DNA of 63,660 nt from Candidatus Saccharimonadales bacterium. Lineage in GTDB: Bacteria > Chloroflexota > Limnocylindria > P2-11E. The notes beneath the pieces were generated by a model. The model made no database searches. It worked only from the letters and a program-made list of their open reading frames with translations, and was not told where the DNA came from. The DNA is taken from positions 1 through 63,660 of the forward strand of contig DATJHW010000097.1 in assembly GCA_035493615.1 (NCBI GenBank). The letters run 5' to 3'. Position 1 is the stretch's first letter. Every line of letters begins with the position of its first letter. This document shows positions 7,433-59,175 of this stretch, piece after piece. The position numbers and the translations under genes are program-made.

Positions 7433-7436
7433 CCTC

Positions 7437-9319: not shown

Positions 9320-9323
9320 GTAC

Positions 9324-10124: not shown

Positions 10125-10915
10125 TGGACCTCGGGCTCGCCGGAAAGCGCGTGCTCGTCGCGGCCGCGAGCAAGGGACTCGGGCGCGCGATCGCGGCGGA
10201 GTTCGTCCGCGAGGGTGCGCAGGTCTCGATCTGCTCTCGCGACCGGGCGCGGATCCAGCAGGTGGCGACCGACCTCGGCGGCGGCACGATCGGCATCGAC
10301 GCCGACGTGAGCACCGAGGACGGCTGCCGCCGGTTCGTCGACCGCAGCGTCGAGCGGCTCGGCGGCATCGACGTCCTCATCGTGAACGCCGGCGGCCCGA
10401 AGCCCGGGAAGTTCGCGGACCTCGACGACGGGGCGTGGCAGACGGCGTTCGAGCTCACGCTCCTGTCGGCCGTGCGGCTCACACGGCTGGCGCTTCCCGA
10501 GCTCAAAAAGACGAAGGGCTCGATCGTCTTCTCGACGTCGACCTCCGTCCGTCAGCCGGGCTCGCCGGCGTACGGCACGCTCATGCTGTCGAACGGGCTC
10601 CGGGCCGCGGTGCACGGGCTCCTGAAGACGCTCTCGACGGAGCTCGCGGCCGACGGGATCCGGGTGAACGCGATCCAGCCGGGCCGCATCTCCACCGAGC
10701 GAATCGCCCAGCTCGACGCGGACACGGCGACGCGCGACGGGGTCACGGTCGAGCAGGTCCGCGAGCGGTTCGAGAAGGGCGGGATCCCGCTCGGACGGTA
10801 CGGACGGCCGGAGGAATTCGCCGCGGCTGCCGTCTTCCTCGCGTCGCCGCGAGCGTCGTACATCACGGGCGTCAGCCTGCAGGTGGACGGCGGCATGCTC
10901 ACGAGCATGTGGTGA
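10124..10915 (+). CDS. SDR family oxidoreductase (3-oxoacyl-ACP reductase-like)
   Basis: 263 aa from GTG 10124. AAASKGLGRAIA (TGxxxGxG-like) and NAGG motifs. Active-site region Y..L..GL with C-terminal SYITGVSLQVDGG. Confidence 0.85.
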   Translation: MDLGLAGKRVLVAAASKGLGRAIAAEFVREGAQVSICSRDRARIQQVATDLGGGTIGIDADVSTEDGCRRFVDRSVERLGGIDVLIVNAGGPKPGKFADLDDGAWQTAFELTLLSAVRLTRLALPELKKTKGSIVFSTSTSVRQPGSPAYGTLMLSNGLRAAVHGLLKTLSTELAADGIRVNAIQPGRISTERIAQLDADTATRDGVTVEQVRERFEKGGIPLGRYGRPEEFAAAAVFLASPRASYITGVSLQVDGGMLTSMW

Positions 10916-12261: not shown

Positions 12262-12983
12262 TCCTCATCGTCGGCCTCGGCATCGCGGGATTCGCAAAGG
12301 GCACCACCGGAATGGGCCTGCCGCTCCTGGCCACGCCGATCCTGGCCGGCGTGTTCGGCCCGAAGGCGGCCGTGGTCATCGTGACGATCCCGATCTTCGC
12401 CGCGAACTCGATCCTGCTGGTCCAGGGCTGGCACCGGCTCGCACTGCTGCGGACGATCGCGCCGATCATCGTCGCGAGCGTCGTCGGCACAGCGATCGGC
12501 GTGAACCTCCTGGCCCTGCTCGATCAGCGGACCTTCGCGATCCTCATCTCGCTCATGGTCGCGGTGTTCCTGCTCCGCGGAGACCGTCTGATCGGCGACG
12601 ACCCCGGCGCGCGCCGCGCGCGGATCCTCGGGCCGGTCGTCGGACTCGTGAGCGGCGTCCTGCAGGGAACGACGTCGATCGCGAGCCCGCTCATCGGGTC
12701 GTTCTTCCACGCGCGGAAGATGGAGCGCCACGATTACGTGATCGTGCTCGCCGCGATCTTCGAGCTGAACGCCGTGATCCAGCTGGCCGGCTACGCGCTC
12801 CTCGGTCTGTACACGGCGAACATCGTCGCGATCGGGCTGCTCGGCCTCGTGCCGACGCTCCTTGCGCTCATGGCCGGGATCTTCTTCCGCGCGAGGCTCG
12901 ACCAGGCTCGCTTCCGCCAGCTCATCGTGGTGCTGCTCATTCTTTCGGTGGCGAACCTTCTCTGGCGGAGCTTCGGCCCCTAG
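12240..12983 (+). CDS. TauE/SafE family sulfite/anion exporter-like membrane protein
   Basis: 247 aa from ATG 12240. Two-fold repeat of hydrophobic segments with GxGGG-like motifs (FAKGTTGMG, VSGVLQGTTSIAS). Confidence 0.82.
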   Translation: MGTGDLLILIVGLGIAGFAKGTTGMGLPLLATPILAGVFGPKAAVVIVTIPIFAANSILLVQGWHRLALLRTIAPIIVASVVGTAIGVNLLALLDQRTFAILISLMVAVFLLRGDRLIGDDPGARRARILGPVVGLVSGVLQGTTSIASPLIGSFFHARKMERHDYVIVLAAIFELNAVIQLAGYALLGLYTANIVAIGLLGLVPTLLALMAGIFFRARLDQARFRQLIVVLLILSVANLLWRSFGP

Positions 12984-13028
12984 CATCTCGCTCAGCAGGC
13001 AGCCCTGAGCGGACGCGGCGAAGCCGCG

Positions 13029-13721
13029 GTGAGGAAGCGCCGAGTGGAGATCGTTCCGCAAGTCCACGGCGTTCGGGTCATCGGGGCGACGGCGCACCTC
13101 ATCGTCGAGAACGAGATCACCCTGATCGACGCCGGGCATCGCGGCTCGGGTCGCCTCGTGCAGCGCTACCTCGCCCGGATCGGCCGCCCGATGAGCGACC
13201 TCACGCGGATCCTCTGCACCCACGGGCATCCCGACCACATCGGCGGCGTCGCGGAGATCGCGGGCGCGTCGGGCGCGTCGATCCACATCCATCCCGCGGA
13301 CGCGGCGCGCTTGCGCATGGGGATCCGCGAGGTCATCGCGAATCCGGTTCCCGGCCAGGTCATCGCGTTCCTCACCCGTCCGCTCCGCGATCCGCAGCCG
13401 CTCCTGGACGGCGATGTCCTCCCGGTGCTCGGCGGCCTGCACGTCGTGCACACGCCGGGCCACACGCCGGGGAGCGTGTGCTTCTACGCGCCGATCCCGC
13501 GGCTGCTCTTCAGCGGCGACGTGCTGCAGGTCCGGCAAGGCCACCTCGCGCGGCCGCATCACATCTTCAGCGACGACCTGACGGAAGCGCAACGGTCGGT
13601 CGCCCGTCTCGCCGAGCTCGACAGCGAAACGATCTGCTTCGCGCATTTCCCGCCGCTGCGCGCCGGTGCGCGGGAGGCGCTCCGCGGCCTAGCCGCAGAC
13701 TGGGCATCGAGCCCGCGGTGA
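13029..13721 (+). CDS. MBL-fold metallo-hydrolase
   Basis: 230 aa. THGHPDHIGG (HxHxDH) and HTPGHTPG motifs. The stop overlaps the next start (GTGA). Confidence 0.85.
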   Translation: MRKRRVEIVPQVHGVRVIGATAHLIVENEITLIDAGHRGSGRLVQRYLARIGRPMSDLTRILCTHGHPDHIGGVAEIAGASGASIHIHPADAARLRMGIREVIANPVPGQVIAFLTRPLRDPQPLLDGDVLPVLGGLHVVHTPGHTPGSVCFYAPIPRLLFSGDVLQVRQGHLARPHHIFSDDLTEAQRSVARLAELDSETICFAHFPPLRAGAREALRGLAADWASSPR

Positions 13722-16228
13722 AGACGCTGAACGAGATCGTCGACGCGTCCGCCGCGCGCTTCGGCAGGAAGCCGGCGCTCATCATCCGGCCCGGCTTCCG
13801 TACGCGCACGTGGACCTACCGCGATCTCGCCGAGCTCGTGCCGCGTGTGGCGCGCACGCTCGCGGACGCAGGCGTCATGCGCGGCGATCGCATCGTCATC
13901 TGGGGCGTGAACCGTCCCGAGTACGGGATCGCGTTCCTGGCCGCGCTGCGCATCGGCGCGGTCCTGGTCCCGCTCGATGTGAACTCGCTGACCGAGTTCG
14001 CGCGGAAGATCGTGCAGCAGACCCGCGCCACCGCGGCGATCGTGTCGGCGCAGACGCGCGAGCGCGCGCTGGCGCTCGGGGTGCCGCTGCACGACATGGA
14101 GGCGTTGCCCGACCGTTCACGGGGCAACGCGCCGCTGCCGGCGGCCGATCTCGAGGGCGACGACCTCGCGGAGATCGTGTTCACCTCGGGTACCACGGGT
14201 GATCCCAAGGGCGCGATGCTCTCGCACCGGAACATCCTGTCGAACGCGGAGGCCGCACGGCAGATCTTCCCGATCGGGCCGAAGCAGCGGCTCCTCTCGT
14301 TCATCCCGCTGTCCCACATGTTCGAACAGCTGGCGGGCTTCTGGACGTTGCTGCTGACGGGCGCGTCGGTGATCTACCCGACGAGCCGTCAGCCTGCGGT
14401 GATCCGTCGCACGTTCAAGGAACGGAGGGTCTCGATGATCCTCATCACGCCCGCGGCCGTGCGCTCGATCCTGCTCGGCATCCAGCGGCAGGCCGAGCAA
14501 CAGGGGAAAGCCGAGCTGCTCGCGAAGCTCGGGAGGATCGCGCGCCATCTGCCGATGGGCCTGCGGCGACTCCTGTTCACGAGCGTTCACAGGCAGTTCG
14601 GCGGCCGATTCCGCTACATCGTCTCCGGCGGTGCCGCGCTCGATCCCGCGCTCGGCGAGGCTTGGCGCGACCTCGGGGTCGACGTGCTCCAGGGCTACGG
14701 GACCACGGAGTGCTCGCCGGCCGTCGCGTTCAACCGTCTCGACAAGAACCGCCTCGGCTCGGTCGGCGTCCCGGTCCCCGGCGTCGACGTGCGGATCGCG
14801 AGCGACGGCGAGGTGGTCGTGCGCGGACCGAACGTCTTCAAGGGATATTGGGAGAACGAGGAGGCCACGCGCGCGGTGCTCGACGCCGAGGGTTGGTACC
14901 ACACGGGCGACCTCGGGGAGATCGACGCGGACGGGTTCCTGTGGCTGCGCGGACGGAAGAAGGACATGATCGTCCTCGCCGACGGCCTCAAGGTCTATCC
15001 CGAGGACATCGAGGAAACGCTCGCTTCCGATCCGCGCGTACGGGCTGCATCGTCGCCGCTGCGGCCGGAGATCGCGACCGTCGTCGGCCTCGAGCCGCCG
15101 GGAGAACCGGTCCACGTTCATGCCGTCTTCCTCTTGAAGGACACCGATGCCGTGGCGTCGATCGTCCGTGACGCGAACACGAGGCTCTCGGGCAGCCAGC
15201 AGATCCGCGGCTGGACGGTGTGGCCCGATGAGGAGTTCCCGACGACGCCGACCCAGAAAGTGAAGAAGCGCATCGTCGTCGAGCGGCTCCTGGAGCTGGC
15301 TCGCGGGGAGCGCGCGGCCGAGGTCGTGGCAGCCGGCGGGCCGGAGCGCCAGCTCACGGAGGTCGAGCGGCTCGTCGCGCAGGTCGCGAATGTGCCGCCG
15401 GCGGTCGTCCGGCCGGAGACGCAGCTTTCCGCCGATCTCGGCATGGACTCTCTGGCTCGCGTCGATCTTCTCGGCGTCATCGAAGAGGAGCTCGGCGCGT
15501 ACATCGATGACGCAGCGGTCATGCCGAGCGCGACCGTCGGAGACCTCGAGCGCATGGTCCATGAGGCCCGCGACGCGAAGCGCGACACCGGCATCTTCGC
15601 CTGGCCGCTGAACCCGCTGGTGCGGACGTTCGGGCTGCTCCTCCAGGAGGCGATCGTGTGGCCGCTGGTCACGATCTTCTATCGCGTCCGGGTGCGTGGC
15701 CGCGAGCACCTGCACGAGATCGATCGGCCGGTGTTCTTCGCGCCGAACCACTGCCTGCACTGGGACAACGGGATCATCCTCACCGCGATCCCCGTCGGCT
15801 GGCGCTGGAAGCTCGCGATCGCCGCGGCGGCCGACGACGTGTTCGGCAACAAGCTGAATGGCTTCGCCTCCGCGGTCCTCGCCGACGCGTTCCCGATGGC
15901 CCGCGAGGGCGCGATCCGGCACAGCCTCGAGCTCCTCGGCGCGCGGCTCGACCGCAACTTCTCGGTCCTCATCTACCCCGAGGGCAAGCTCACGGTCGGC
16001 GGGCCGATGCAGCCGTTCAAGGCCGGCACCGGTCTCATCGCCGTCGAGGGCCGGACGCCGGTCGTGCCGATGAAGCTGAAGATCAAGACCATGTCCGTCA
16101 TCGACCGGGTGGGCTGGCCCCTGCGTGGCGACGTCGAGGTCGTCTTCGGGGCGCCGCTCGTGTTCGACGCGGGCACCGACACGACCGCCGCGACGCGGCG
16201 GATCGAGGCGGCGGTCGCCGAGCTCTAG
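13718..16228 (+). CDS. tri-domain fusion: acyl-AMP/CoA ligase + carrier (phosphopantetheine) domain + PlsC-type lysophospholipid acyltransferase
   Basis: 836 aa from GTG 13718, within composite ORF 12107..16228. Adenylation motifs FTSGTTGDPKGAMLSHRN, GYGTTE, WYHTGDLG, GRKKDMI. Carrier motif LSADLGMDSLARVDL. Acyltransferase motifs NHCLHWD (HX4D) and IYPEGK. Confidence 0.85.
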   Translation: MKTLNEIVDASAARFGRKPALIIRPGFRTRTWTYRDLAELVPRVARTLADAGVMRGDRIVIWGVNRPEYGIAFLAALRIGAVLVPLDVNSLTEFARKIVQQTRATAAIVSAQTRERALALGVPLHDMEALPDRSRGNAPLPAADLEGDDLAEIVFTSGTTGDPKGAMLSHRNILSNAEAARQIFPIGPKQRLLSFIPLSHMFEQLAGFWTLLLTGASVIYPTSRQPAVIRRTFKERRVSMILITPAAVRSILLGIQRQAEQQGKAELLAKLGRIARHLPMGLRRLLFTSVHRQFGGRFRYIVSGGAALDPALGEAWRDLGVDVLQGYGTTECSPAVAFNRLDKNRLGSVGVPVPGVDVRIASDGEVVVRGPNVFKGYWENEEATRAVLDAEGWYHTGDLGEIDADGFLWLRGRKKDMIVLADGLKVYPEDIEETLASDPRVRAASSPLRPEIATVVGLEPPGEPVHVHAVFLLKDTDAVASIVRDANTRLSGSQQIRGWTVWPDEEFPTTPTQKVKKRIVVERLLELARGERAAEVVAAGGPERQLTEVERLVAQVANVPPAVVRPETQLSADLGMDSLARVDLLGVIEEELGAYIDDAAVMPSATVGDLERMVHEARDAKRDTGIFAWPLNPLVRTFGLLLQEAIVWPLVTIFYRVRVRGREHLHEIDRPVFFAPNHCLHWDNGIILTAIPVGWRWKLAIAAAADDVFGNKLNGFASAVLADAFPMAREGAIRHSLELLGARLDRNFSVLIYPEGKLTVGGPMQPFKAGTGLIAVEGRTPVVPMKLKIKTMSVIDRVGWPLRGDVEVVFGAPLVFDAGTDTTAATRRIEAAVAEL

Positions 16229-50306: not shown

Positions 50307-50342
50307 GACCCCCGGTCGCAAGACCGGGGGTCTTTCCTATTT
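50307..50342 (+). terminator. intrinsic terminator (11-bp perfect stem, GCAA loop, T-rich tail)
   Basis: gacccccggtc-gcaa-gaccgggggtc followed by tttcctattt, 25 nt after the zinc-ribbon stop codon. Confidence 0.75.
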
Positions 50343-50828
50343 GGCTCGCCGCCGCTCCGCATACATCTGCTGGATGAAGTGCGGCGCCCACTGGAGGTAC
50401 CGTCGCTGCGTGTCCGGTGCGAGTGAGAAGAACTCACCGAGGACCTGGTGTGGACCGCGCGCCGGATCGCACAGACAGTCCATCACCCACACGCCGGTGC
50501 CGTCGTCGTACGCATTCAGCCGGTAGTCGATCGTGATCTCCTCGCCAGGTGCGATGTCACGCACCGCGATGACCGCGTCCCGCTCGGTGCCGAGCGCGTT
50601 CGGGTCGCACGCATGGTTGAGATAACAGCGTGGCTCCGGTAGCACGCGCCACAGTCCGATCCCGAACTCCGAGAGATGCTCGCGCTCCCAGACCGTGAGC
50701 TGCGCGAGCCCGCCGCGGTCAATGACCGGGCCATCGAACGCCGAGAGGATCGTCTCACCGGCCGCGAAGCGCCGGAGGGCGAAGACGCCCCTGCCCTTGC
50801 CCGCAGCGTCCCGAACGGCGACGTCTAC
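50337..50828 (-). CDS. SET-domain protein (putative lysine methyltransferase); start codon unresolved
   Basis: In-frame part of ORF 50337..51089. VAVRDAAGKGRGVFALRRFAAGETI, YLNHACDPN, EEITIDY and post-SET CLCD motifs. There is no ATG/GTG/TTG between GTG 51089 (265-nt out-of-frame overlap with cofE) and GTG 50645 (which truncates the domain). The upper bound given is the codon overlapping the cofE stop. Confidence 0.72.
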   Translation of the reverse strand, partial: VDVAVRDAAGKGRGVFALRRFAAGETILSAFDGPVIDRGGLAQLTVWEREHLSEFGIGLWRVLPEPRCYLNHACDPNALGTERDAVIAVRDIAPGEEITIDYRLNAYDDGTGVWVMDCLCDPARGPHQVLGEFFSLAPDTQRRYLQWAPHFIQQMYAERRRAK

Positions 50829-51580
50829 CGGAACATGTCCTTGTCGCGCGGGCGCACGTACGTGCGCGCGGTCTCGCTGCCTTCGGGCATCGGAAGCCCG
50901 CGCACGATCGCGGCGGGCCGTCGATCGAGCTTCCCCATCACGAGCTCCGTCGCGGCGGCGATCTCGTCGGCGATCGCGATCTCGGTGACGCGCATCTCGT
51001 AGCCGTCGGGGTCGAACTCGCCGATGTACCGGCGAAGCGCGGGGAGGCCACTGATCCCGATGGCCACGTTCATGTGACCCTCGCGCCACGCCCGGCCGAA
51101 GGTGTCGGTGATCACGACCGGCACGTCGATCCCGCTCTGCTTCCGGATCGCCGCGCGGATCCGCGCGGCCGACGCGTCGGGATCGACCGGGAGCAGGATG
51201 AGCGTGTCCGGCGCGCCGGCATTCGAGTGGTCGACCCCCGCGTTCGCAGCGACGAAGCCGTGCTTCGTCTCGACGATGAGCACGCCGCGCTGCCAGCGGA
51301 CGATGCGCACGGTCTCGTCCAGCACGGCCTGCAGGCCGCGCGCGTCCTTGCCGGACTCCGCGGCCATCCGCTCCGCGTCGGGCCCCGGCACGACGTCGGC
51401 GAGCTTGCGGATACGGCCCTCGGACTTGGAGACGACCTTCTGCGCGATCGCGAGCACGTCGCCGTCCTCGAAGGCGCGGCCGGCCGCGCGCAGGCAGTCG
51501 ATGAGCATCGCGGCCAGTTCGTCGCCCGGCTTGATCTCGGGAAGGCCGTCGATCGGGATGAGGGTGACGTCGGACACCAC
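50825..51580 (-). CDS. cofE: coenzyme F420-0:L-glutamate ligase
   Basis: ORF 50825..51652 trimmed to GTG 51580 (251 aa). DGDVLAIAQKVVSKSEGR, VETKHGFVAANAGVD, ITDTFGRAWREG and C-terminal RPRDKDMFR. Confidence 0.88.
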   Translation of the reverse strand: MVSDVTLIPIDGLPEIKPGDELAAMLIDCLRAAGRAFEDGDVLAIAQKVVSKSEGRIRKLADVVPGPDAERMAAESGKDARGLQAVLDETVRIVRWQRGVLIVETKHGFVAANAGVDHSNAGAPDTLILLPVDPDASAARIRAAIRKQSGIDVPVVITDTFGRAWREGHMNVAIGISGLPALRRYIGEFDPDGYEMRVTEIAIADEIAAATELVMGKLDRRPAAIVRGLPMPEGSETARTYVRPRDKDMFR

Positions 51581-51624
51581 TGAAAGTCTCGCTGATAGCG
51601 TGGGCAGGTGCAGAGGTACGCGAT

Positions 51625-52023
51625 GTGAAGGAGGACCTGCTCGCCAGCGCACGGCTCGGCCATCTCGCGACGACGAGCGCGACCGGCCGCCCGCACGTCG
51701 TCCCGGTGTGCTTCGCCTGGCTGCCGCCCCTCGTCTACTCGGCCATCGACGGCAAGCCCAAGCGGACGACGCTCCTGCGGCGGATCCGGAACATCGCCGA
51801 GACCGGCCGCGCGGCGCTCGTCGTCGATCGGTGGAGCGAGGATTGGACGAAGCTCGCGTACGTGCTCGTCGAAGGCCGAGCCGAGGTGCTCGAGGACGGA
51901 CGGGAGCGCGACGAGGCGCTCATCCTGCTCACCGCGAAATATCCGCAGTACGACGACCTGCCGCTCGAAGGGAACCTCGTCATCAAGCTCGTCGCCGAAC
52001 ATGTTGTTGAATGGCACGCCTGA
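51625..52023 (+). CDS. PPOX-class (pyridoxamine 5'-phosphate oxidase fold) F420-dependent oxidoreductase
   Basis: 132 aa. GHLATTSATGRPHVVPVCF...VVDRWSEDWTKLAYVLVEGRAEV pattern. Divergent from cofE. Confidence 0.8.
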   Translation: MKEDLLASARLGHLATTSATGRPHVVPVCFAWLPPLVYSAIDGKPKRTTLLRRIRNIAETGRAALVVDRWSEDWTKLAYVLVEGRAEVLEDGRERDEALILLTAKYPQYDDLPLEGNLVIKLVAEHVVEWHA

Positions 52024-53033
52024 TGGAGTTCGGCTTCACGCTCAAGCCCGACCACTCGCTCGAGCGGATCGCCTCGCTCACCAAGCTCGCCGAGCAATGC
52101 GGCTTCACCTACGGCTGGGTCTTCGACAGCCACGTGCTCTGGAAGGAGCCCTACGTCCTCCTGACGCTGATGGCCCAGAACAGCACGAAGCTGCGCCTCG
52201 GCACCTGTGTCACGAACCCGGCGACACGCGAGCCGTCGGTGACCGCGAGCGCGCTCGCGGTCCTGCAGATCCTCTCCAAGGGCCGGATGGATCTGGGCAT
52301 CGGTCGCGGCGATTCCGCGCGCCGTGTGCTGGGCAAGAAGCCGACGACGCTCGAGGATCTCGAGGCGGCGACGCTCGCGATCCGCGAGCTGTGCGAAGGC
52401 CGCGCGACCACGTACGACGGGACCGAGATCAAGCTCGACTGGGCCGAGCGCTACAAGCTGCCGGTGTGGATCGCCGGCTACGGGCCCAAGGCGCTCGCGA
52501 TGACCGGTCGGATCGCGGACGGCGCCGTCATCCAGATCGCGGACCCCAGCCTTGTGAAGTGGTGCGTCGGTCTCCTGCGTGACGGGACGCGCATCGCGCA
52601 TCGGGACGCGTCCGACGTGAAGGTCATGGTCGCGGCGCCGGCGCACGTCGGGCCGAAGGCCGCCGTCCGCGAGCGCGTGCGCTGGTTCCCCGCCCTCGTG
52701 AGCAACCACGTCGTCGACCTGGTGCGCCGCTACGGCGAGCAAGGCCTGCCGGCGGACCTCACGAGCTACGTGCGCGGCCGGCCGGGGTACGACTACAAGC
52801 ATCACGCGGAGTCGGGCTCGTCGAACGCCGGGTTCGTCGACGACGAGTCCGTCGACCGCTTCTGCGTGACCGGTGAGGTGAGCGAGCAGGTCGAGAAGCT
52901 CCACACGCTCGCAGACGCGGGGATGACCCAGTTCAACCTCTACCTCATGAGCGGCGACGAGGAGCGGCAGCTCGAGGCGTACGGCCGGGACGTGATCCCG
53001 AAGCTCCGTGGATCGGTGTCCGCGCCGGCCTAG
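52011..53033 (+). CDS. LLM-class (luciferase-like) F420-dependent oxidoreductase (Mer-like)
   Basis: 340 aa. FGFTLKP, FTYGWVFDSH, GTCVTNP, GIGRGDS and IAGYGPKAL motifs. Confidence 0.85.
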   Translation: MARLMEFGFTLKPDHSLERIASLTKLAEQCGFTYGWVFDSHVLWKEPYVLLTLMAQNSTKLRLGTCVTNPATREPSVTASALAVLQILSKGRMDLGIGRGDSARRVLGKKPTTLEDLEAATLAIRELCEGRATTYDGTEIKLDWAERYKLPVWIAGYGPKALAMTGRIADGAVIQIADPSLVKWCVGLLRDGTRIAHRDASDVKVMVAAPAHVGPKAAVRERVRWFPALVSNHVVDLVRRYGEQGLPADLTSYVRGRPGYDYKHHAESGSSNAGFVDDESVDRFCVTGEVSEQVEKLHTLADAGMTQFNLYLMSGDEERQLEAYGRDVIPKLRGSVSAPA

Positions 53034-53605
53034 GCGCCGAATCCAGCGACCCAGCGCTGCGCGTCGGCGAACCCGTACTTCGCGTCAGCCTCGGCGCCGA
53101 GCGCGTCCAGCGTCTTGCTGAAGAACGAACGGGCCGATGCGGCGAGCACGATGTCGACGATCTCGTCGTCCGTGAAGCCGTGTCCGCGCAGCCCATCGAT
53201 GTCCTCGGACGTGACCTTGTAGGCATGGAGCACGACCTTCTCGACGAGGTCGAGCATCGCGACCTCCCGTGCGTCGAGGCCGGCGGTGCGGTGATCGTTC
53301 GTGATCGCCGCGATCTGCTCGGCCGTGAAGAACTTGGACCGGAGCAGGACCGCTCCGTGGGCGAGCGTTCAGTAGCGGCAGCGCAGCTTCGCGGCGGCGA
53401 CCGTCGTGATGAGCTCGTAGCGCCGCTGGTCCTGGTGCTCGCGGATCGCGGCGATGAGCTGGCGGAACGCGACGATCGCCTTCGGCCGGAGGCTGAGGGC
53501 CTGGGTGTGGCTCGGGAGCTCGCCATTCGCGAGCACGTCGGCGTCGTAGATCTCTTTCAGCAGCCCAGTGGCCTCGCCCGATGAGACCGTCCGGATGTAG
53601 GCCAC
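53030..53605 (-). CDS. AhpD/carboxymuconolactone-decarboxylase-family peroxidase-related protein with in-frame TGA (candidate selenocysteine, CxxU)
   Basis: Track ORFs 53369..53605 and 53030..53257 share one frame and are separated only by TGA 53371..53369. Read-through gives 191 aa with ...TVAAAKLRCRY[TGA]TLAHGAVLL..., matching the C-x-x-C-x-x-x-H active-site pattern. The alternative is a pseudogene. Confidence 0.6.
53341..53356 (-). other. candidate bacterial SECIS hairpin core
   Basis: mRNA GGAGC-GGUCCU-GCUCC starts 12 nt after the UGA and is extendable to CC(A)CGGAGC...GCUCCGG with one bulged A. The apical loop contains GGUC at about the same distance from UGA as I recall for E. coli fdhF. 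Confidence 0.4.
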
Positions 53606-53634
53606 GCAGCACCTCCTCTGATCGCGCGGTGAGG

Positions 53635-54657
53635 CTAGCGGAGGACGAAGCCCTCACGCAGCGGATCGTCGGGCGCGACCCACAGCTCCGACCGGCCGAC
53701 GGTCCACGCGGATCCGGTGACCTCAGGCACGACCGCGTCGTGCCGCGCGACCGTGGCCGTCCGGGCCACCCGCCCGCGGAACACCGTACCGATGATGCTC
53801 TCGACCCGGAAGGTCGCGCCGTCGCGGAGCCGCCCGCGTGCGCGCTCGATCGCGACGCGCGCGCTCACCCCGGTGCCGGTCGGGGACCGGTCGAGCTCGC
53901 CTTCGGCGAAGACGCAGACGTTCCGCGAATCGGCACCCGGCCCGTGCGGCTTGCCGGTGAGGATCGTGCCGTACAAGAAGGAGAGATCCGCGGCGTCCGG
54001 TGAGTCGGGGTGCGTGATCTCGCGACTCGCCATGACCGCCCGTTTGATCCGCATTCCGACGTCGATGCACTGACGGAAGCCGCTCGGGTCGAGCGGCAGG
54101 CCGAGGGCGTCAGCGTCGACGAACGCGTAGAACGCACCGCCGAACGCGAGGTCGTAGCGCACCGTTCCGAGACCCGCCACCTCGACGGCGGCGTCGAGGT
54201 CGACCGCGAAGGACGGCACGTTCTCGAACGAAACCTCGCGGACCCGCACGCCGTCGCGCGTCGCGCGCGCGGTGACCCGGCCCGGCGGCGCGTCGTAGCG
54301 GATGACGTCGCCCTTCCGTTCGCCGGTCTCGAGGAGCGCCGTGGTCAGCGCGATGATCCCGTGGCCGCACATCGTGCTCCAGCCTTCGTTGTGGACGAAC
54401 AGGACGCCGAGGTCGCCGTCGTGCGTCACCGGCTCGGTCAGGATCGCCCCGTACATGTCGGCGTGGCCATGCGGCTCGAACACGATCGTCCTGCGCAGGC
54501 CGTCGAGGTGCTCGCGCGCGTAGCGGCGCTTGTCGAGCATCGTCCGACCGGGGATCGGATCGATGCCGCCGGTCACGATGCGCAACGGCTCGCCGGCGGC
54601 GTGGGACTCGAGGGTCGTGACGCGCGGCCAGGTCTTCGGCGGTGTCCAGTTCCGCAT
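53635..54657 (-). CDS. proline racemase family protein, Cys/Thr type (trans-3-hydroxy-L-proline dehydratase-like)
   Basis: 340 aa. First catalytic site WSTMCGHG (Cys). Second site DRSPTGTG has Thr instead of Cys, the signature separating dehydratases from racemases/epimerases. Confidence 0.82.
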   Translation of the reverse strand: MRNWTPPKTWPRVTTLESHAAGEPLRIVTGGIDPIPGRTMLDKRRYAREHLDGLRRTIVFEPHGHADMYGAILTEPVTHDGDLGVLFVHNEGWSTMCGHGIIALTTALLETGERKGDVIRYDAPPGRVTARATRDGVRVREVSFENVPSFAVDLDAAVEVAGLGTVRYDLAFGGAFYAFVDADALGLPLDPSGFRQCIDVGMRIKRAVMASREITHPDSPDAADLSFLYGTILTGKPHGPGADSRNVCVFAEGELDRSPTGTGVSARVAIERARGRLRDGATFRVESIIGTVFRGRVARTATVARHDAVVPEVTGSAWTVGRSELWVAPDDPLREGFVLR

Positions 54658-54675
54658 ACCTGCGCCCGGGCCGGG

Positions 54676-55914
54676 CTATGCCCGCTCCGGGCGAGCCCCA
54701 TCCAACGGGTGAACGGCGCCATCCTTCATCACGAACGCGACCGAGCCGCGGTCCTTGAACAGCGCGATGTTCGCGAGCGGATCGCCCCGCACGCCGACGA
54801 GATCCGCGCGCTTGCCCGGCTCGACGGTGCCGACGAGCTTGTCGACGCGCGAGCACTCGGCCGCTGTCTTCGTGGTGGCGACGATGGCCTGCATCGGCGT
54901 CATGCCGTTCTCGACCATGACCGCGATCTCCTCCGCGTTGCTCCCGTGCGGCCCAACGCCGGTGTCGGTGCCCATCGCGATGCGCACGCCGTGCTCGACG
55001 GCCATCCGGAACGACCGGGTGTGGGCTTCGGCAACCTCCTTGGCCTTTCGGATGGCGTACGGCGGCATCGATGAGGGATCCTTCTCGGCACGGCGGACCA
55101 CCCAGAGCGGCGCGACCAGGGTCGCGACCAGATACGTGCCACGCTTCTTCATCTCCGCGCAGATCTCCTCGGAGAGATAGATGCCGTGCTCGATTGACTC
55201 GACGCCGGCGAGGACCGCGTTCTTGATGCCCTGCATCGCCTGCGCGTGCGACATCACGGTCTTGCCCGCGGCGTGGGCCTCGTACACGACCGCGGCGATC
55301 TCGTCCGGCGAGAAGCCGGTGGCGCCCGGCTCGTCGTTCGGCGACAGGACGCCGCCGGAGGTCATGATCTTGATCTGGTCGGCGCCGGCCCGAAGGACCT
55401 CACGGGTCACCCGCCGGATGTTGTCGATCCCGTCCACCACGCCGATCGGCCGCTCCGGATCCATCACGGCCACGTTCACCCCCGACGGCATCAGGGAGTC
55501 GCCGTGCCCGCCGGTCTGCGAGAGCGGCGTCACCGCGATGCGCATGCGCGGACCGGGGAACAGGCCGCGCTCGACGGCCATCTTCACACCGCGCGTGGTG
55601 AACCCGGCGTCGCGGACGGTCGTGAAGCCGGCATCGAGCGTCTCTCGCGCGTGGACCAGGGCCATCGCCGTGTTCAGGCTCGGCGGCATGAGCAGACGCT
55701 GCTCGATGCTCTCCTGCCCAGGCACGAGATGGACATGGCAGTCGATCAAGCCGGGCAGCATCGTGAGCTCGCCGGTGTCGATGACCTCAGCGCCCTTCGG
55801 CGCGTCCTTCACGATGCTCTGGATGACCCCGTCCTCGATGACGACGAACCGCCCGCGGACCGGATCGGCCCCCGTGCCATCGATGAGCGTGCTCGCGCGG
55901 ACGGCGACGGTCAC
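54676..55914 (-). CDS. amidohydrolase family metallo-hydrolase (Xaa-Pro dipeptidase/imidazolonepropionase-like)
   Basis: 412 aa. PGLIDCHVHL (HxH), SHAQ and GTDTG motifs. Confidence 0.85.
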   Translation of the reverse strand: MTVAVRASTLIDGTGADPVRGRFVVIEDGVIQSIVKDAPKGAEVIDTGELTMLPGLIDCHVHLVPGQESIEQRLLMPPSLNTAMALVHARETLDAGFTTVRDAGFTTRGVKMAVERGLFPGPRMRIAVTPLSQTGGHGDSLMPSGVNVAVMDPERPIGVVDGIDNIRRVTREVLRAGADQIKIMTSGGVLSPNDEPGATGFSPDEIAAVVYEAHAAGKTVMSHAQAMQGIKNAVLAGVESIEHGIYLSEEICAEMKKRGTYLVATLVAPLWVVRRAEKDPSSMPPYAIRKAKEVAEAHTRSFRMAVEHGVRIAMGTDTGVGPHGSNAEEIAVMVENGMTPMQAIVATTKTAAECSRVDKLVGTVEPGKRADLVGVRGDPLANIALFKDRGSVAFVMKDGAVHPLDGARPERA

Positions 55915-56864
55915 GCGATCGCCTCCTCGAGCTGGGGACGCACCTCGGTCGCGATCCGCTCGATCGTCTCGTGGTCGAACGGCGCCATGAAGTACAGGAT
56001 GAATCCCCGGGCGCCGGCCCGCCAGAGCGCGGCGCAGCGCTCGACCAGCGCGTCGACGGTGTGGATCGGGTTCATCTTCAGCGGCTCGGGGCGCTTGGAC
56101 CGCGCGCGCACGCGCTCCAGCTGCGCCGTGACATCGCTCACCTTCGAGCGAAGGACGACATCGGGTCTCACGCTCGTCAGGGGCTTGATCTCACGTAAGT
56201 CGCGGCCGACGTCGGCGCAGTGAGCCGCAAGGACCTCGAGCTTGTGCGCGATGACCTCCGGAGTGCCATGGCCGTGCCACAAGTCCGCGTATCTGGCGAC
56301 CGTGCGGAGCGTCTTCCGCTCGCCACCGCCGCCGATGAGCAGTGGGAGCCGCTCCTGCACCGGCTTCGGCTCGGCGACCGCGTCCGTCAGCGTGTAGTGC
56401 TTGCCGGAGAAGCTCGCGGTCGGCTCGTCGAGCAGCAGACGCAGCACACGCGCGGCCTCGTCCATCCGGGCGAGCCGGCCGGCGGTCGAGGGGAAGCGCA
56501 GGCCGTACATCGCGTGCTCGCCCTCGTGCCAGGCGGCGCCGAGCCCGAGGATCGCGCGGCCGTTCGTGATGTGGTCCAACGTCGCGACCATCTTCGCCAA
56601 GACCGGTGGATGGCGGTACGTGTTCCCGGTGACGAGGGTGCCGAGACGGACGCGCGTCGTGAGGGCGCCCCACGCCGCAAGCAGCTCCCAGGCCTCGAAC
56701 ATCGGACCGTTCGGATCGCCGTCGAGCGGGACGAAGTGATCCCACGTCCAGACGGAATCGAACCCGAGCCGGTCGACGAGCGCGACCGTCTCGCGCAGCT
56801 CCGTCCAGGTCGTGTGCTGGGCCGGGAGGTTGATGCCCCAGTGCGGTCGCGGGGTCGCGACTAT
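55911..56864 (-). CDS. LLM-class F420-dependent oxidoreductase; start codon unresolved
   Basis: Track ORF 55911..56702 starts at the first ATG. The same frame stays open up to TGA 56894..56892 and encodes HWGINLPAQHTTWTELRETVALVDRLGFDSVWTWDHFVPL, which aligns with the N-terminus of the paralog at 58237. The only start-like codon there is ATA 56864, giving an ATAG overlap with the aminotransferase stop. Confidence 0.78.
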   Translation of the reverse strand: MVATPRPHWGINLPAQHTTWTELRETVALVDRLGFDSVWTWDHFVPLDGDPNGPMFEAWELLAAWGALTTRVRLGTLVTGNTYRHPPVLAKMVATLDHITNGRAILGLGAAWHEGEHAMYGLRFPSTAGRLARMDEAARVLRLLLDEPTASFSGKHYTLTDAVAEPKPVQERLPLLIGGGGERKTLRTVARYADLWHGHGTPEVIAHKLEVLAAHCADVGRDLREIKPLTSVRPDVVLRSKVSDVTAQLERVRARSKRPEPLKMNPIHTVDALVERCAALWRAGARGFILYFMAPFDHETIERIATEVRPQLEEAIA

Positions 56865-58204
56865 CCGAGCTTTCCCGTCGCCGCGTAGCGGTCAGCGACC
56901 GCGAGCGCCTCGTCGATCGCGTTGATCCCGATGCGCAGCTCCTCATCGGTGATGATCAGCGGCGGCGCGACGAAGAGCATGTTCCAGCGGCAGAACACGT
57001 AGACGTCGCGCTTCATGAGCTCGCCCTTGAGCGCGTTCGCGAGCGCGCTCGACGGGCCGTTCCACTGCTCGAGCATCTCCTTCGTGCCACGATCCTTCAC
57101 GAGCTCGACGCCCCAGAACAATCCGCGACCGCGAACATCGCCGATCGACGGATGCTTCGTCGCGAGCGTCCGTAGCTCGCGGCCGAGGCGCTCGCCCATC
57201 CGGGCGGAGTTCCCGATCAGGTCGTCGGCCTCGTACGCATCGAGCGTCGCGACGCCGGCGGCGCACGCGAGGGCGTGGCCGCTGTACGTGAGGCCGCCCC
57301 AGTAGACGTTGTCGTCGAAGTGCTTGGCGATCTTTTCGTTGACCATCGCGCCACCGAGTGGCACGTACCCGGAGTTCACACCCTTCGCGAAGGTCATGAT
57401 GTCGGGCACCGTCTGCCAGTGCTCCGAGGCGAACCACTTGCCCGTGCGCCCGAAACCGGTCATGACCTCGTCGAACACGAGCACGATCCCGTACGTGTCG
57501 CAGAGCGTCCGGAGGCCCTGGAGGAAGCCATCGGGTGGGACGAGCAGGCCCGAGGTGCCGACGATCGGCTCGAGCAGGATCGCGGCGATGTACTGCGGGC
57601 CCTCGTACCAGATGACCTCTTCGACGTGCGCGAGCGCCTTCTGCGCGTCGTCGCCGAAGACCGAGCGGTACGGATCCGGATTGAGGAAGTGCACGATCCC
57701 GGTGATGCCCGGCTCGTTGGCCCAGCGGCGGTTGTCACCGCCGAGGCTCATCGCGCCCTGGGTCTGGCCGTGGAAGCTCCGCCATTGGGTGAGGATCTTG
57801 TGGCGGCCCGTGTACAGGCGCGCGAGCTTGATCGCGTTCTCGTTCGCCTCGGTGCCACCGGTCGTGAAGAGGGTCTTGGTGAGGTCGCCCGGTGCCACAT
57901 CGGCGAGCTTGCGGGCGAGCGTCGCCTGGGCCTCGGTCGTGAACGCAGGGGTGACGTAGTTGAGCGTCGCGGCCTGCTCCTGGATCGCGCGCACGACGCG
58001 CGGATGGCCGTGACCGAGGTTGGAGTTCACGAGCTCGGAGGAGAAATCGAGGATCCGGCGGTCGCCGGAGTAGAGCCAGACGCCTTCGGCACCGGTGATG
58101 ACGAGCGGCGAAATATTCCCCTGTGCGGACCAGTTCACGAGAACGTGCTTCTTCGTGTCCGCCAGGACTTTCGCGACGTCGGTGCGATCCCGCGTGAGCG
58201 CCAT
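56861..58204 (-). CDS. class III (omega-type) aminotransferase
   Basis: ORF 56861..58234. ATG 58204 is preferred; GTG 58234 is 2 nt from the divergent gene. GGTEANE, FDEVMTGFGRTGKWF and TFAKG (PLP Lys) motifs. Confidence 0.88.
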   Translation of the reverse strand: MALTRDRTDVAKVLADTKKHVLVNWSAQGNISPLVITGAEGVWLYSGDRRILDFSSELVNSNLGHGHPRVVRAIQEQAATLNYVTPAFTTEAQATLARKLADVAPGDLTKTLFTTGGTEANENAIKLARLYTGRHKILTQWRSFHGQTQGAMSLGGDNRRWANEPGITGIVHFLNPDPYRSVFGDDAQKALAHVEEVIWYEGPQYIAAILLEPIVGTSGLLVPPDGFLQGLRTLCDTYGIVLVFDEVMTGFGRTGKWFASEHWQTVPDIMTFAKGVNSGYVPLGGAMVNEKIAKHFDDNVYWGGLTYSGHALACAAGVATLDAYEADDLIGNSARMGERLGRELRTLATKHPSIGDVRGRGLFWGVELVKDRGTKEMLEQWNGPSSALANALKGELMKRDVYVFCRWNMLFVAPPLIITDEELRIGINAIDEALAVADRYAATGKLG

Positions 58205-58236
58205 CGGCGCTCGGACTATACGCTCGGAGGCCACCC

Positions 58237-59175
58237 ATGACGTTCTTCGGCCTGCAGCTTCACCCGCAGTACACCACCTGGGACGAGATGCGCGATGCCG
58301 CGCTCCTCGCCGAGGAGAGCGGGTGGGACGTCCTCATGACGTGGGATCACTTCGTGCCGCTCATGGGCGACGTCACCGGGCCGAACCTCGAGGGCTGGCA
58401 GGTGCTCGCCGCGTTCGGCGCGATCACGAAGACCCCGAAGATCGGGATGCTCGTCACCGGCAACACGTACCGGCACCCCGCCGTGCTCGCGAACATGGCC
58501 TCCACGCTCGACAACATCACGAACGGCCGCGCGGTCCTTGGGATCGGCGCCGCATGGAACGAGCACGAGCACCGGATGTACGGGATCCACTTCGACACGC
58601 CCGCGATCCGGCTGGCGAAGCTGCGCGAGGCGACCCGGATCATCCGCGGCCTGCTCGACAAGGGGACGGTCACCTACGAGGGCAACTACTACCAGCTGGA
58701 GAACGCGACGCTCGGCACCCGGCCGATCCAGAAGCGCGTGCCGATCCTCATCGGCGGCGGCGGCGAGCGGGTCACGCTGAAGATCACCGCGCGGTACGCG
58801 GACTGGTGGCACGGGTTCGGGACCCCCGAGATCATCAAGCACAAGCTCGAGGTCCTGAAGCAGCACTGCGCCGATGTCGGACGTGACTTCAGCGAGATCG
58901 ACCCAACGGGCGGTGGGGGCATCCTGGTCCGCGACGACCTCAACACGGTCGACAAGCGGATGCGGGAGGTGGCCGCGCGGAACAAGGTCGAGGCGCCGAA
59001 CCGGCCGGCGGTGCTCGGGAAGCCCGACGACATCGTGAAGCGGCTCCTCGAATACCACAAGGTCGGGGTCAAGGGCTTCCTGTTCGGGATGTCACCGCCG
59101 TACGACCGCGAGACCATCGAACGGACGATGACCGAGGTGAAGCCGCGCTTCCTGGAGCTCGCCGGAGCGCGCTAG
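58237..59175 (+). CDS. LLM-class F420-dependent oxidoreductase
   Basis: 312 aa. FGLQLHPQ, TWDHFVPL, VTGNTYRHPAVLA, GIGAAWNEHEH and GGGGERVTL motifs. Paralog of 55911..56864. Confidence 0.88.
   Translation: MTFFGLQLHPQYTTWDEMRDAALLAEESGWDVLMTWDHFVPLMGDVTGPNLEGWQVLAAFGAITKTPKIGMLVTGNTYRHPAVLANMASTLDNITNGRAVLGIGAAWNEHEHRMYGIHFDTPAIRLAKLREATRIIRGLLDKGTVTYEGNYYQLENATLGTRPIQKRVPILIGGGGERVTLKITARYADWWHGFGTPEIIKHKLEVLKQHCADVGRDFSEIDPTGGGGILVRDDLNTVDKRMREVAARNKVEAPNRPAVLGKPDDIVKRLLEYHKVGVKGFLFGMSPPYDRETIERTMTEVKPRFLELAGAR

What the first reader, a model, noticed from the sequence alone, without database searches (positions are those of the whole stretch)
53030..58234. Five-gene minus-strand operon linking an F420-type LLM reductase to a hydroxyproline-dehydratase-type enzyme: possible F420-dependent cyclic-imine/hydroxyproline route
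The genes are tightly packed, with 4-nt overlaps or gaps of 18-29 nt. The order is class III aminotransferase, LLM F420-dependent oxidoreductase, amidohydrolase (dipeptidase-like), proline-racemase-family enzyme and the AhpD-like candidate selenoprotein. The proline-racemase-family enzyme carries the Cys/Thr catalytic pair typical of trans-3-hydroxy-L-proline dehydratases. These dehydratases produce delta1-pyrroline-2-carboxylate, which known pathways reduce with NAD(P)H enzymes. No such reductase is present here. LLM-type F420H2 enzymes are known to reduce cyclic imines, for example in 4-alkyl-proline biosynthesis. I do not know of an F420-dependent replacement of the Pyr2C reductase step being described.
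Basis: inference. Interest (0 to 1): 0.55.

Follow-up and report, generated by a model that had tools for sequence, protein, structure and literature searches.

The report
Hydroxyproline dehydratase appended to F420 operon
A soil Chloroflexota bacterium really has a tight five-gene operon joining a 3-hydroxyproline dehydratase to an F420-type oxidoreductase, but relatives show the oxidoreductase belongs with the aminotransferase and the dehydratase came later, so F420-dependent hydroxyproline breakdown stays an untested possibility.

Summary
Five co-directional minus-strand genes lie at 53030-58234 with the stated overlaps and gaps. They are a class III aminotransferase (AT), a TIGR03560 F420-type LLM (LLMa), an amidohydrolase (AMH), a Cys/Thr proline-racemase-family enzyme (ProR) and an AhpD-like gene with an in-frame TGA.

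[quoted passage not shown] Its best solved relatives are the T. litoralis and human dehydratases, and an OCD-type Pyr2C reductase gene lies next to or near the ProR gene in other lineages.

The operon is a mosaic.
- LLMb, AT, LLMa and LLM3842 form an older core, found in four genera of one Limnocylindria family.
- In sister genera this core lies beside dihydropyrimidinase, CN-hydrolase and aldehyde dehydrogenase genes.
- AMH, then ProR, then AhpD (this genome only) were appended at a variable 3' spot.
- LLMa orthologs occur in genomes where no ProR ortholog was found.

Against, a distant OCD paralog remains elsewhere in the genome.

I put F420H2-dependent Pyr2C reduction by LLMa at about 0.2. 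The scan reached similar readings before on two other genomes (e1-938478, e1-3796921).

The parts
56861..58234 (-). Class III (omega-type) aminotransferase, first gene of the operon
   Evidence: NF004718/PRK06062, 590 bits against a cut-off of 472. The best solved relative is taurine:2-oxoglutarate aminotransferase 6jix. Homologs at 47-56% identity sit in reductive pyrimidine catabolism clusters of other Chloroflexota.
55911..56864 (-). LLMa, a TIGR03560 (Rv1855c-family) F420-dependent LLM oxidoreductase. Its probable start is the non-canonical ATA 56864..56862, which overlaps the AT stop codon (ATAG).
   Evidence: TIGR03560, 249 bits against a cut-off of 231. The model match starts at residue 10 of the read-through, upstream of the first ATG at 56702. 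The frame relation to the AT stop is conserved in 27 of 28 junctions.
54676..55914 (-). Amidohydrolase-superfamily carboxypeptidase or prolidase-like enzyme (AMH). Its GTG start overlaps the LLMa stop (GTGA).
   Evidence: The best NCBIfam model is the Xaa-Pro dipeptidase NF051886, 339 bits, below its cut-off of 500. The best solved relatives are ochratoxin-type amidohydrolases, Arg carboxypeptidase Cc2672 and prolidase 3feq/3n2c.
53635..54657 (-). [quoted passage not shown]
   Evidence: PF05544, 339 bits. Motifs MCGH and DRSPTGTG are present. [quoted passage not shown] In 26 related loci an OCD gene lies next to or within about 1.5 kb of ProR.
53030..53605 (-). AhpD/CMD-family gene with an in-frame TGA (53371..53369) at the second Cys of the CxxC motif. 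It is a candidate selenoprotein and a genome-specific add-on.
   Evidence: CMD domain. U79 aligns with an invariant Cys in seven full-length homologs. selA, selB and tRNA-Sec are in the genome. The gene is absent from all related clusters.
58237..59175 (+). LLMb, a TIGR03560 paralog of LLMa (50% identity), divergent from AT and part of the conserved core
52011..53033 (+). LLM3842, a TIGR03842 Mer-like F420-dependent LLM, convergent on the operon and part of the conserved core
   Evidence: TIGR03842, 410 bits against a cut-off of 295. It is clustered with CN-hydrolase, dihydropyrimidinase and AT genes in distant Chloroflexota.
51625..52023 (+). PPOX-class F420-dependent oxidoreductase (TIGR03668)
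   Evidence: 142 bits against a cut-off of 119.
50825..51652 (-). cofE, coenzyme F420-0:L-glutamate ligase
   Evidence: TIGR01916, 277 bits against a cut-off of 181.

Best explanation
The five genes form one real, tightly packed operon in a Candidatus Limnocylindria (Chloroflexota) genome. The operon is a mosaic built by stepwise addition at its 3' end.

The old core is an omega-type class III aminotransferase translationally coupled to a TIGR03560 F420-type LLM (LLMa). The core is flanked by two more F420 LLMs (LLMb and LLM3842). In sister genera it lies next to dihydropyrimidinase, CN-hydrolase and aldehyde dehydrogenase genes. By inference, its ancestral job is catabolism of beta-alanine or a similar omega-amino acid, connected to reductive pyrimidine breakdown.

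Three genes were then appended. First came a carboxypeptidase/prolidase-like amidohydrolase. [quoted passage not shown] In this genome only, an AhpD-like candidate selenoprotein was added last.

The dehydratase (shown by homology) converts trans-3-hydroxy-L-proline to delta1-pyrroline-2-carboxylate (Pyr2C). The substrate is probably released from peptides or N-acyl conjugates by the amidohydrolase (inferred).

What consumes Pyr2C is not settled. My estimates are:
- NAD(P)H-dependent reduction by the distant OCD paralog on contig C133, about 0.35.
- F420H2-dependent reduction by LLMa or a neighbouring LLM, about 0.2-0.25.
- Transamination of the ring-opened 5-amino-2-oxopentanoate by the AT, about 0.15.
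- Something else, the remainder.

Co-transcription may reflect shared regulation of nitrogen-rich scavenging pathways, or simply a permissive insertion site, rather than one linear pathway.
For: Operon anatomy and family assignments.

ProR as a T3LHyp dehydratase:
- The best solved relatives are T. litoralis 6r76/6r77 and 7qpo (deposited as a T3LHyp dehydratase). PMC9309405 confirms the identity of 6r76/6r77 and treats the human enzyme as its ortholog.
- All 66 relatives in which the motif could be read carry Thr at the second catalytic position.
- In 26 of 68 non-focal loci an OCD/mu-crystallin gene lies next to or within about 1.5 kb of ProR.
- In genus g5 a family-5 peptide ABC transporter follows.

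Stepwise build-up:
- LLMb, AT, LLMa and LLM3842 occur together in genera g1, g4 and g8. Loci from g6 carry the AT-LLMa pair.
- AT-LLMa-AMH without ProR occurs in G076, G190 and G097.
- AT-LLMa-AMH-ProR occurs only in the g1 subclade where LLMa is at least 80% identical.
- AhpD occurs only here. Other genes occupy the same spot elsewhere, namely DinB-like, PAS-like and ABATE/zf-CGNR genes.
- No ProR ortholog was found in g4, g6 or g8.

Pyrimidine context:
- Dihydropyrimidinase (TIGR02033, 625 bits), CN-hydrolase and ALDH lie just upstream of the core in L081, L114, L115 and L116.
- A canonical cluster of DHPase, PreA, an NCS1 transporter, CN-hydrolase, AT and MMSDH occurs in G371, with an AT homolog.

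Tight AT-LLMa coupling: the codon overlapping the AT stop is in frame with LLMa in 27 of 28 distinct junctions, with spacers of 14-47 nt.

F420 supply: cofD, cofE and fgd.

OCD paralog.
Against: - No biochemical data exist for any of these proteins.
- Loss of the ProR-linked OCD ortholog from every genome searched in the genus, together with the move of ProR into this operon, looks like a non-orthologous displacement. That favours a pathway link over a neutral insertion.
- The operon's AT is a family-specific paralog. A second AT in the genome (contig C31) is closer to the pyrimidine-cluster ATs than the operon AT is. The beta-alanine assignment for the operon AT is therefore uncertain.
- In this genome the dihydropyrimidinase, CN-hydrolase and ALDH genes lie on other contigs.
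- All genomes are MAGs. This one is 85% complete, so absences are provisional.
Confidence: 0.6

Rival explanations
1. LLMa is an F420H2-dependent Pyr2C reductase that replaces the NAD(P)H-dependent OCD- or Ldh2-type enzyme. The route would run from a hydroxyproline peptide through AMH to t3LHyp, through ProR to Pyr2C, and through LLMa with F420H2 to L-proline.
For: - The ProR-linked OCD ortholog (at least 66% identity in g5, g2 and g7) was not found in any of 23 genomes of genus g1. In that genus ProR sits two genes downstream of LLMa.
- No Ldh_2 family gene is present.
- F420 synthesis and F420H2 supply genes are present.
- LLM-fold Fps/Apd6 enzymes reduce the endocyclic imine of 4-alkyl-pyrroline-2-carboxylates (PMC8498797).
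- The genes are tightly packed with coupled junctions.
Against: - LLMa orthologs with the same AT partner occur in g4, g6 and g8, where no ProR ortholog was found. Pyr2C derived from 3-hydroxyproline therefore cannot be LLMa's ancestral substrate.
- AMH, not ProR, is the gene coupled to LLMa.
- None of 68 other ProR loci, including F420-capable Chloroflexota, has an LLM within 7 kb.
- An OCD paralog is available. It scores 206 bits on a Pyr2C/Pip2C reductase model, much like the ProR-linked OCD at 227 bits.
- The role of the AT is left unexplained.
- In genus g2 the OCD ortholog occurs in many genomes where no ProR was found, so its loss need not be tied to ProR.
Confidence: 0.2
2. Aminotransferase route. 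Pyr2C opens to 5-amino-2-oxopentanoate. The omega-aminotransferase converts it to 2,5-dioxopentanoate (alpha-ketoglutarate semialdehyde). An aldehyde dehydrogenase oxidises that to 2-oxoglutarate, bypassing proline. LLMa keeps its older, unrelated carbonyl or imine reductase role.
For: - The AT belongs to the omega-amino-acid group. Its nearest solved relative is a taurine:2-oxoglutarate AT, and GABA and putrescine ATs also match.
- The family's cluster-associated ALDH scores best on alpha-ketoglutaric semialdehyde / 2,5-dioxovalerate dehydrogenase models (547 and 526 bits), not on MMSDH (345 bits).
- A 76%-identical copy of that ALDH is in this genome.
- This model would explain why ProR was recruited to an AT-led operon.
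Against: - The ALDH scores are below the equivalog cut-offs.
- The ALDH is not linked to the operon in this genome.
- From my own knowledge, the Pyr2C equilibrium strongly favours the ring form.
- I know of no precedent for this route, and the searches run here were not aimed at it.
Confidence: 0.12
3. Pure hitch-hiking. The space between the convergent LLMa and LLM3842 genes is a permissive landing pad. AMH, ProR and AhpD are unrelated cargo expressed by read-through, with no metabolic tie to AT or LLMa. Pyr2C is reduced by the OCD paralog.
For: - The spot holds different genes in different genomes. These are nothing (g8, an 86-nt gap), ABATE/zf-CGNR genes, DinB-like genes, PAS-like genes and AhpD.
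- AhpD is unique to this genome.
- The OCD paralog is conserved across the genus.
Against: - AMH is translationally coupled to LLMa (GTGA) in every genome that has it.
- The AT-LLMa-AMH-ProR order is kept across at least 12 species at 80-96% identity.
- Loss of the OCD ortholog coincides with the relocation of ProR.
Confidence: 0.25

Closest known systems
Two-enzyme trans-3-hydroxy-L-proline pathway (LhpH dehydratase plus LhpI/OCD-type Pyr2C reductase; Azospirillum brasilense PMC3958920, Thermococcus litoralis PMC4141209, human L3HYPDH PMC9309405)
   Same: ProR shares the fold, the Cys/Thr pair and the highest similarity with the T. litoralis and human dehydratases. In sister lineages an OCD-family gene lies next to or near ProR, as in the known pathway.
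   Different: Here the OCD partner is missing from the locus and its ortholog was not found in the genus. The dehydratase is instead embedded in an aminotransferase/F420-LLM operon.
Fps/Apd6 F420H2-dependent LLM reductases of 4-alkyl-L-proline biosynthesis (LmbY, TomJ and others; PMC8498797, PMC8518648)
   Same: They have the LLM (TIM-barrel) fold and are F420H2-dependent. They reduce an endocyclic imine of a pyrroline-2-carboxylate-type substrate, which gives a chemical precedent.
   Different: They are actinobacterial biosynthetic enzymes. LLMa is filed under TIGR03560, a family with no assigned substrate.
Reductive pyrimidine catabolism cluster (PreA/PydA, dihydropyrimidinase, beta-ureidopropionase, beta-alanine aminotransferase, (methyl)malonate-semialdehyde dehydrogenase)
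   Same: AT homologs sit in such clusters in other Chloroflexota (L140, L141, L145, L138). In sister genera the AT-LLMa core abuts dihydropyrimidinase, CN-hydrolase and ALDH genes.
   Different: In this genome those genes are on other contigs. The operon AT is a family-specific paralog. TIGR03842 or TIGR03560 LLMs stand where PreA stands in the canonical cluster.
AhpD-like (CMD-family) selenoproteins
   Same: The CxxC motif has TGA at the second Cys, full-length Cys homologs exist, and Sec machinery is present.
   Different: The gene is present only in this genome at this locus. No convincing SECIS was shown: the fold z-score is -1.3.

Membership tests
[quoted passage not shown] | Pro_racemase fold over the full length | tested here: met
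   PF05544, 339 bits, profile positions 2-325.
[quoted passage not shown] | Catalytic pair Cys (MCGH) / Thr (DRSPTGTG) instead of Cys/Cys | tested here: met
   Both motifs are present and align with those of 6r76 and 7qpo. The same holds in all 66 relatives where the motif could be read.
[quoted passage not shown] | Closer to characterised dehydratases than to racemases or epimerases | tested here: met
   379 bits to T. litoralis T3LHypD and 272 bits to 7qpo (deposited as a T3LHyp dehydratase). This compares with 243 bits to the best racemase and 167 bits or less to the remaining solved chains. No formal tree with characterised members was built.
[quoted passage not shown] | Score above the NCBIfam equivalog cut-off | tested here: not met
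   NF045511 scores 343 bits against a cut-off of 540. It is still the top-scoring model.
[quoted passage not shown] | Dehydratase activity on t3LHyp giving Pyr2C | not testable with these tools
   Needs an enzyme assay.
LhpH/LhpI-type T3LHyp gene pair | Adjacent OCD- or Ldh2-type Pyr2C reductase gene | tested here: not met
   None lies within 7 kb in the focal clade. No ortholog of the ProR-linked OCD was found in the genus. No Ldh_2 gene is present. One distant OCD paralog lies elsewhere in the genome.
TIGR03560 (Rv1855c-family) F420-dependent LLM oxidoreductase | HMM score above the curated cut-off | tested here: met
   248.9 bits against a cut-off of 231.4.
TIGR03560 (Rv1855c-family) F420-dependent LLM oxidoreductase | Host makes F420 and can reduce it | tested here: met
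   cofD at 318 bits, cofE at 277 bits in the window, fgd at 436 bits.
TIGR03560 (Rv1855c-family) F420-dependent LLM oxidoreductase | Intact gene with a recognisable start | tested here: inconclusive
   There is no ATG, GTG or TTG before the conserved N-terminus. ATA lies in an ATAG overlap. The frame relation is conserved in 27 of 28 junctions, which argues that the N-terminus is translated.
Fps/Apd6-type F420H2-dependent cyclic imine reductases | Sequence clustering with LmbY/TomJ-type enzymes, and imine reductase activity | not tested
Only a chemical precedent from PMC8498797 is available.
Class III aminotransferase, PRK06062 subfamily | HMM score above the cut-off | tested here: met
   590 bits against a cut-off of 472.
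Amidohydrolase-superfamily Xaa-Pro dipeptidase / carboxypeptidase group | Equivalog-level match to a characterised prolidase | tested here: inconclusive
   NF051886 scores 339 bits against a cut-off of 500. The solved relatives span Arg carboxypeptidases, prolidases and ochratoxin amidases at 181-229 bits.
AhpD-like selenoprotein | TGA aligned with the catalytic Cys of Cys homologs, plus Sec machinery and a SECIS | tested here: inconclusive
   The Cys alignment is met. selA, selB and tRNA-Sec are present. The SECIS was not demonstrated.

The most novel reading that the evidence does not exclude
In this Limnocylindria genus the NAD(P)H-dependent OCD-type Pyr2C reductase has been displaced by an F420H2-dependent LLM, either LLMa or one of its two neighbours. 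This would give the first F420-dependent step in hydroxyproline catabolism. It would parallel a second displacement suggested by the same neighbourhood, in which a TIGR03842 LLM stands in place of PreA-type dihydropyrimidine dehydrogenase.
Probability: 0.2. Interest if true: 0.65.

Novelty: new variant of a known kind. Interest (0 to 1): 0.4.

Why it matters
If an F420 LLM reduces Pyr2C, cofactor F420 would gain a role in central amino-acid salvage in abundant, uncultured soil Chloroflexota. The large, substrate-less TIGR03560 family would also gain a first substrate.

The comparative result has its own value. It shows how a scavenging operon grows by 3' accretion. It also ties the AT and TIGR03842 LLM genes to pyrimidine catabolism, which offers a testable candidate for an F420-dependent dihydropyrimidine dehydrogenase.

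As it stands, the dehydratase is an ordinary member of a known family, and the F420 link is only a hypothesis.

Tried and rejected
- **-1 frameshift fusing AT and LLMa.** The window has a GGGAAAG heptamer in the AT frame shortly before the stop (16 nt separate heptamer and stop). It is not conserved in relatives. No natural AT-LLM fusion proteins were found, which is weak evidence. I reject this in favour of a non-canonical or re-initiation start.
- **LLMa as a pseudogene truncated at ATG 56702.** Rejected. The upstream 47 codons are conserved, match the family model, and keep frame across spacers of different lengths.
- **Promoter and terminator scan of 52800-58500.** Nothing above shuffled expectation.
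- **SECIS fold downstream of the TGA.** A hairpin forms, but the z-score is only -1.3.
- **The C133 OCD as the relocated ortholog of the ProR-linked OCD.** Rejected. It is 36-45% identical, whereas ProR is 65-71% identical between the same genera.
- **AT-LLMa adjacency beyond the family.** Not found in 11 loci from other Chloroflexota families.
- **Literature.** No paper in the library links F420 with pyrroline-2-carboxylate, or T3LHyp dehydratase with luciferase-like enzymes. Rv1855c has no assigned function in the one paper found.
- **Formal phylogeny with characterised ProR-family enzymes.** Not done, because solved-structure sequences could not be passed to the tree tools.

Full report
**Observation**

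The window is contig C97 of a 2.44-Mb MAG that is 85% complete. Related contigs are titled Candidatus Limnocylindria / Chloroflexota.

Five genes lie head to tail on the minus strand:
- AT, 56861..58234.
- LLMa, 55911..56864.
- AMH, 54676..55914.
- ProR, 53635..54657.
- An AhpD/CMD-like gene, 53030..53605. It is interrupted only by a TGA at 53371..53369, inside a C-R-Y-TGA-T-L-A-H motif.

- AT: NF004718, 590 bits against a cut-off of 472.
- LLMa: TIGR03560, 249 bits against 231.
- AMH: nearest model is a Xaa-Pro dipeptidase, 339 bits, below its cut-off of 500.
- The last gene has a CMD domain.

The operon lies inside an F420 block:
- cofE, 50825..51652.
- A PPOX-class F420 enzyme, 51625..52023.
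- A TIGR03842 LLM (LLM3842), 52011..53033, convergent on the operon.
- A second TIGR03560 LLM (LLMb), 58237..59175, divergent from AT.

**What ProR is**

- Its best solved relatives are 6r76/6r77 at 379 bits and 7qpo at 272 bits. [quoted passage not shown] - The MCGH Cys and the DRSPTGTG Thr align with both structures.
- The best-scoring proline racemase reaches 243 bits, and the remaining solved chains 167 bits or less.
- Among 80 related loci, every one of the 66 in which the motif could be read has Thr at the second position.
- In 26 of the 68 loci outside the focal clade, an OCD/mu-crystallin gene lies next to or within about 1.5 kb of ProR. This family holds the known Pyr2C reductases (PMC3958920, PMC4141209).
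- In genus g5 a family-5 peptide ABC transporter follows ProR.

[quoted passage not shown] It is single-copy in the genome.

**How far the linkage goes**

AT-LLMa-AMH-ProR, flanked by LLMb and LLM3842, recurs in at least 12 species-level genomes. Protein identities there are 80-96%. All ProR homologs at 71% identity or less lack AT, LLM and AMH within 7 kb.

Searching from LLMa instead gives a nested series:
- LLMb, AT, LLMa and LLM3842 occur together in genera g1, g4 and g8 of one family. Loci from g6 carry the AT-LLMa pair.
- AT-LLMa-AMH without ProR occurs in G076 (g6) and in G190 and G097 (basal g1).
- The ProR-bearing form occurs only in the g1 subclade where LLMa is at least 80% identical.
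- The AhpD gene is found only in this genome.
- In relatives ProR either abuts LLM3842 directly, or the gap holds DinB-like or PAS-like genes. In ProR-less genomes the spot holds nothing or an ABATE/zf-CGNR gene.

The operon therefore grew by accretion at a variable spot between convergent genes. No ProR ortholog was found in g4, g6 or g8. 3-Hydroxyproline-derived Pyr2C therefore cannot be the ancestral substrate of LLMa.

**What the old core belongs to**

I tested that idea.
- In L081, L114, L115 and L116 (g4, g8 and a related MAG), three genes lie immediately upstream of LLMb/AT/LLMa. They are a dihydropyrimidinase (TIGR02033, 625 bits against a cut-off of 393), a CN-hydrolase and an aldehyde dehydrogenase.
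- In more distant Chloroflexota, AT homologs at 47-50% identity sit in CN-hydrolase / TIGR03842-LLM / dihydropyrimidinase / AT clusters (L138, L141, L145).
- In G371 the cluster is the canonical one: dihydropyrimidinase, PreA (NF006183, 524 bits), an NCS1 transporter, CN-hydrolase, AT and MMSDH. It has no LLM.
- G010 and G316, both 95% complete, have only one DHO_dh-family gene, presumably pyrD.

The AT family is thus the omega-aminotransferase of reductive pyrimidine catabolism. The TIGR03842 LLM is a candidate F420-dependent stand-in for dihydropyrimidine dehydrogenase. No paper in the library has F420-dependent dihydropyrimidine reduction as its subject.

Caveats:
- The operon AT is a family-specific paralog. 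A second AT on contig C31 is closer to the pyrimidine-cluster ATs.
- In this genome the dihydropyrimidinase, CN-hydrolase and ALDH genes lie on other contigs.

- The OCD gene that accompanies ProR in g5 has orthologs at 66% identity or more in g5, g2 and g7.
- It has no ortholog above 46% identity in any of the 23 g1 genomes searched.
- The genome has no Ldh_2 gene.
- cofD, cofE and fgd are present.
- LLM-fold Fps/Apd6 enzymes reduce endocyclic imines of proline derivatives.
- This pattern resembles a non-orthologous displacement.

**Against it**

- A 334-aa OCD paralog lies at C133:20320-21324, next to a Liv-type ABC transporter. It is kept throughout the genus and in genera where no ProR was found.
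- That paralog scores 206 bits on a Pyr2C/Pip2C reductase model. The ProR-linked OCD scores 227 bits on the same model.
- In g2 the OCD ortholog occurs in many genomes where no ProR was found.
- LLMa's invariant partner is the AT, and the next gene recruited was AMH, not ProR.

I therefore rate LLMa as the physiological Pyr2C reductase at about 0.2.

An aminotransferase route through 2,5-dioxopentanoate is a further possibility. The family's ALDH scores best on alpha-ketoglutarate-semialdehyde dehydrogenase models, although below their cut-offs.

**Side results**

- LLMa has no canonical start before its conserved N-terminus, which the TIGR03560 model matches from residue 10. Most gene callers truncate it to 263-290 aa.
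- In 27 of 28 distinct AT/LLMa junctions, the codon that overlaps the AT stop is in frame with LLMa. That codon is ATA, CTG, GTG, GTA or CTA. The spacers run from 14 to 47 nt, all equal to 2 modulo 3.
- The one exception carries a 568-nt insertion and has its own start codon.
- This argues for translation starting at the stop/start overlap and for tight AT-LLMa coupling.
- The AhpD TGA aligns with an invariant Cys. selA, selB and tRNA-Sec are present.

**Unpublished genomes**

The tallies include unpublished genomes. include G106, G091, G067 and G235. One search includes those four and eight more. One junction row (L086, from G106) comes from an unpublished genome. None of the conclusions depends on them.

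**Verdict**

The dehydratase is a new member of a known family in an unusual operon context. The F420 link is possible but unproven, and comparative genomics weakens it.

Noticed in passing
window 56702-56894 (AT/LLMa junction); loci L002-L015, L081-L131: LLMa lacks any ATG, GTG or TTG before its conserved N-terminus. In 27 of 28 distinct junctions across four genera, the codon overlapping the AT stop is in frame with LLMa. That codon is ATA, CTG, GTG, GTA or CTA. Spacers of 14-47 nt are all equal to 2 modulo 3. Only a few genomes keep a canonical GTG. This suggests initiation or re-initiation at a non-canonical codon in the stop/start overlap.
   Followed up: yes
window 52011-53033 (+); L138, L140, L141, L145: The TIGR03842 LLM sits with CN-hydrolase, dihydropyrimidinase and AT genes in several Chloroflexota families that show no PreA-type gene. 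G371 has the same cluster with PreA and no LLM. This complementary pattern makes the LLM a candidate F420-dependent dihydropyrimidine dehydrogenase. No paper in the library has this as its subject.
   Followed up: partly
window 53030-53605 (-): The AhpD-like gene has TGA at the position of an invariant Cys in its homologs. selA and selB (contig C28) and tRNA-Sec (contig C67) are present. The gene is unique to this genome at this locus. L011 keeps a 21-aa N-terminal remnant. The same spot holds DinB-like or PAS-like genes in other species.
   Followed up: partly
window 58234-58237: The AT start on the minus strand (58234) and the LLMb start on the plus strand (58237) are separated by only 2 nt. 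The divergent genes leave no intergenic room for promoters. Either the transcripts are leaderless, with promoters inside the neighbouring gene, or AT starts at the internal ATG 10 codons downstream.
   Followed up: no
own genome C31:6-1214 (L146): A second class III aminotransferase, 53% identical to the operon AT, is closer (71% and 56%) to the pyrimidine-cluster ATs of distant Chloroflexota. It is followed by an ALDH-like gene on a 2.5-kb contig.
   Followed up: partly
L134 (G043, genus g5) 7021-15744: In the sister genus the arrangement is an OCD-family gene, a short gene with no Pfam match, ProR, a 607-aa gene with no Pfam match, and then an SBP_bac_5 peptide ABC transporter. It looks like a compact hydroxyproline-peptide utilisation locus.
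   Followed up: partly
window 50337-51089 (-) and L133 6383-6898: A SET-domain gene lies directly behind cofE in the window. Another SET-domain gene lies about 1 kb from the unlinked ProR of genome G097.
   Followed up: no
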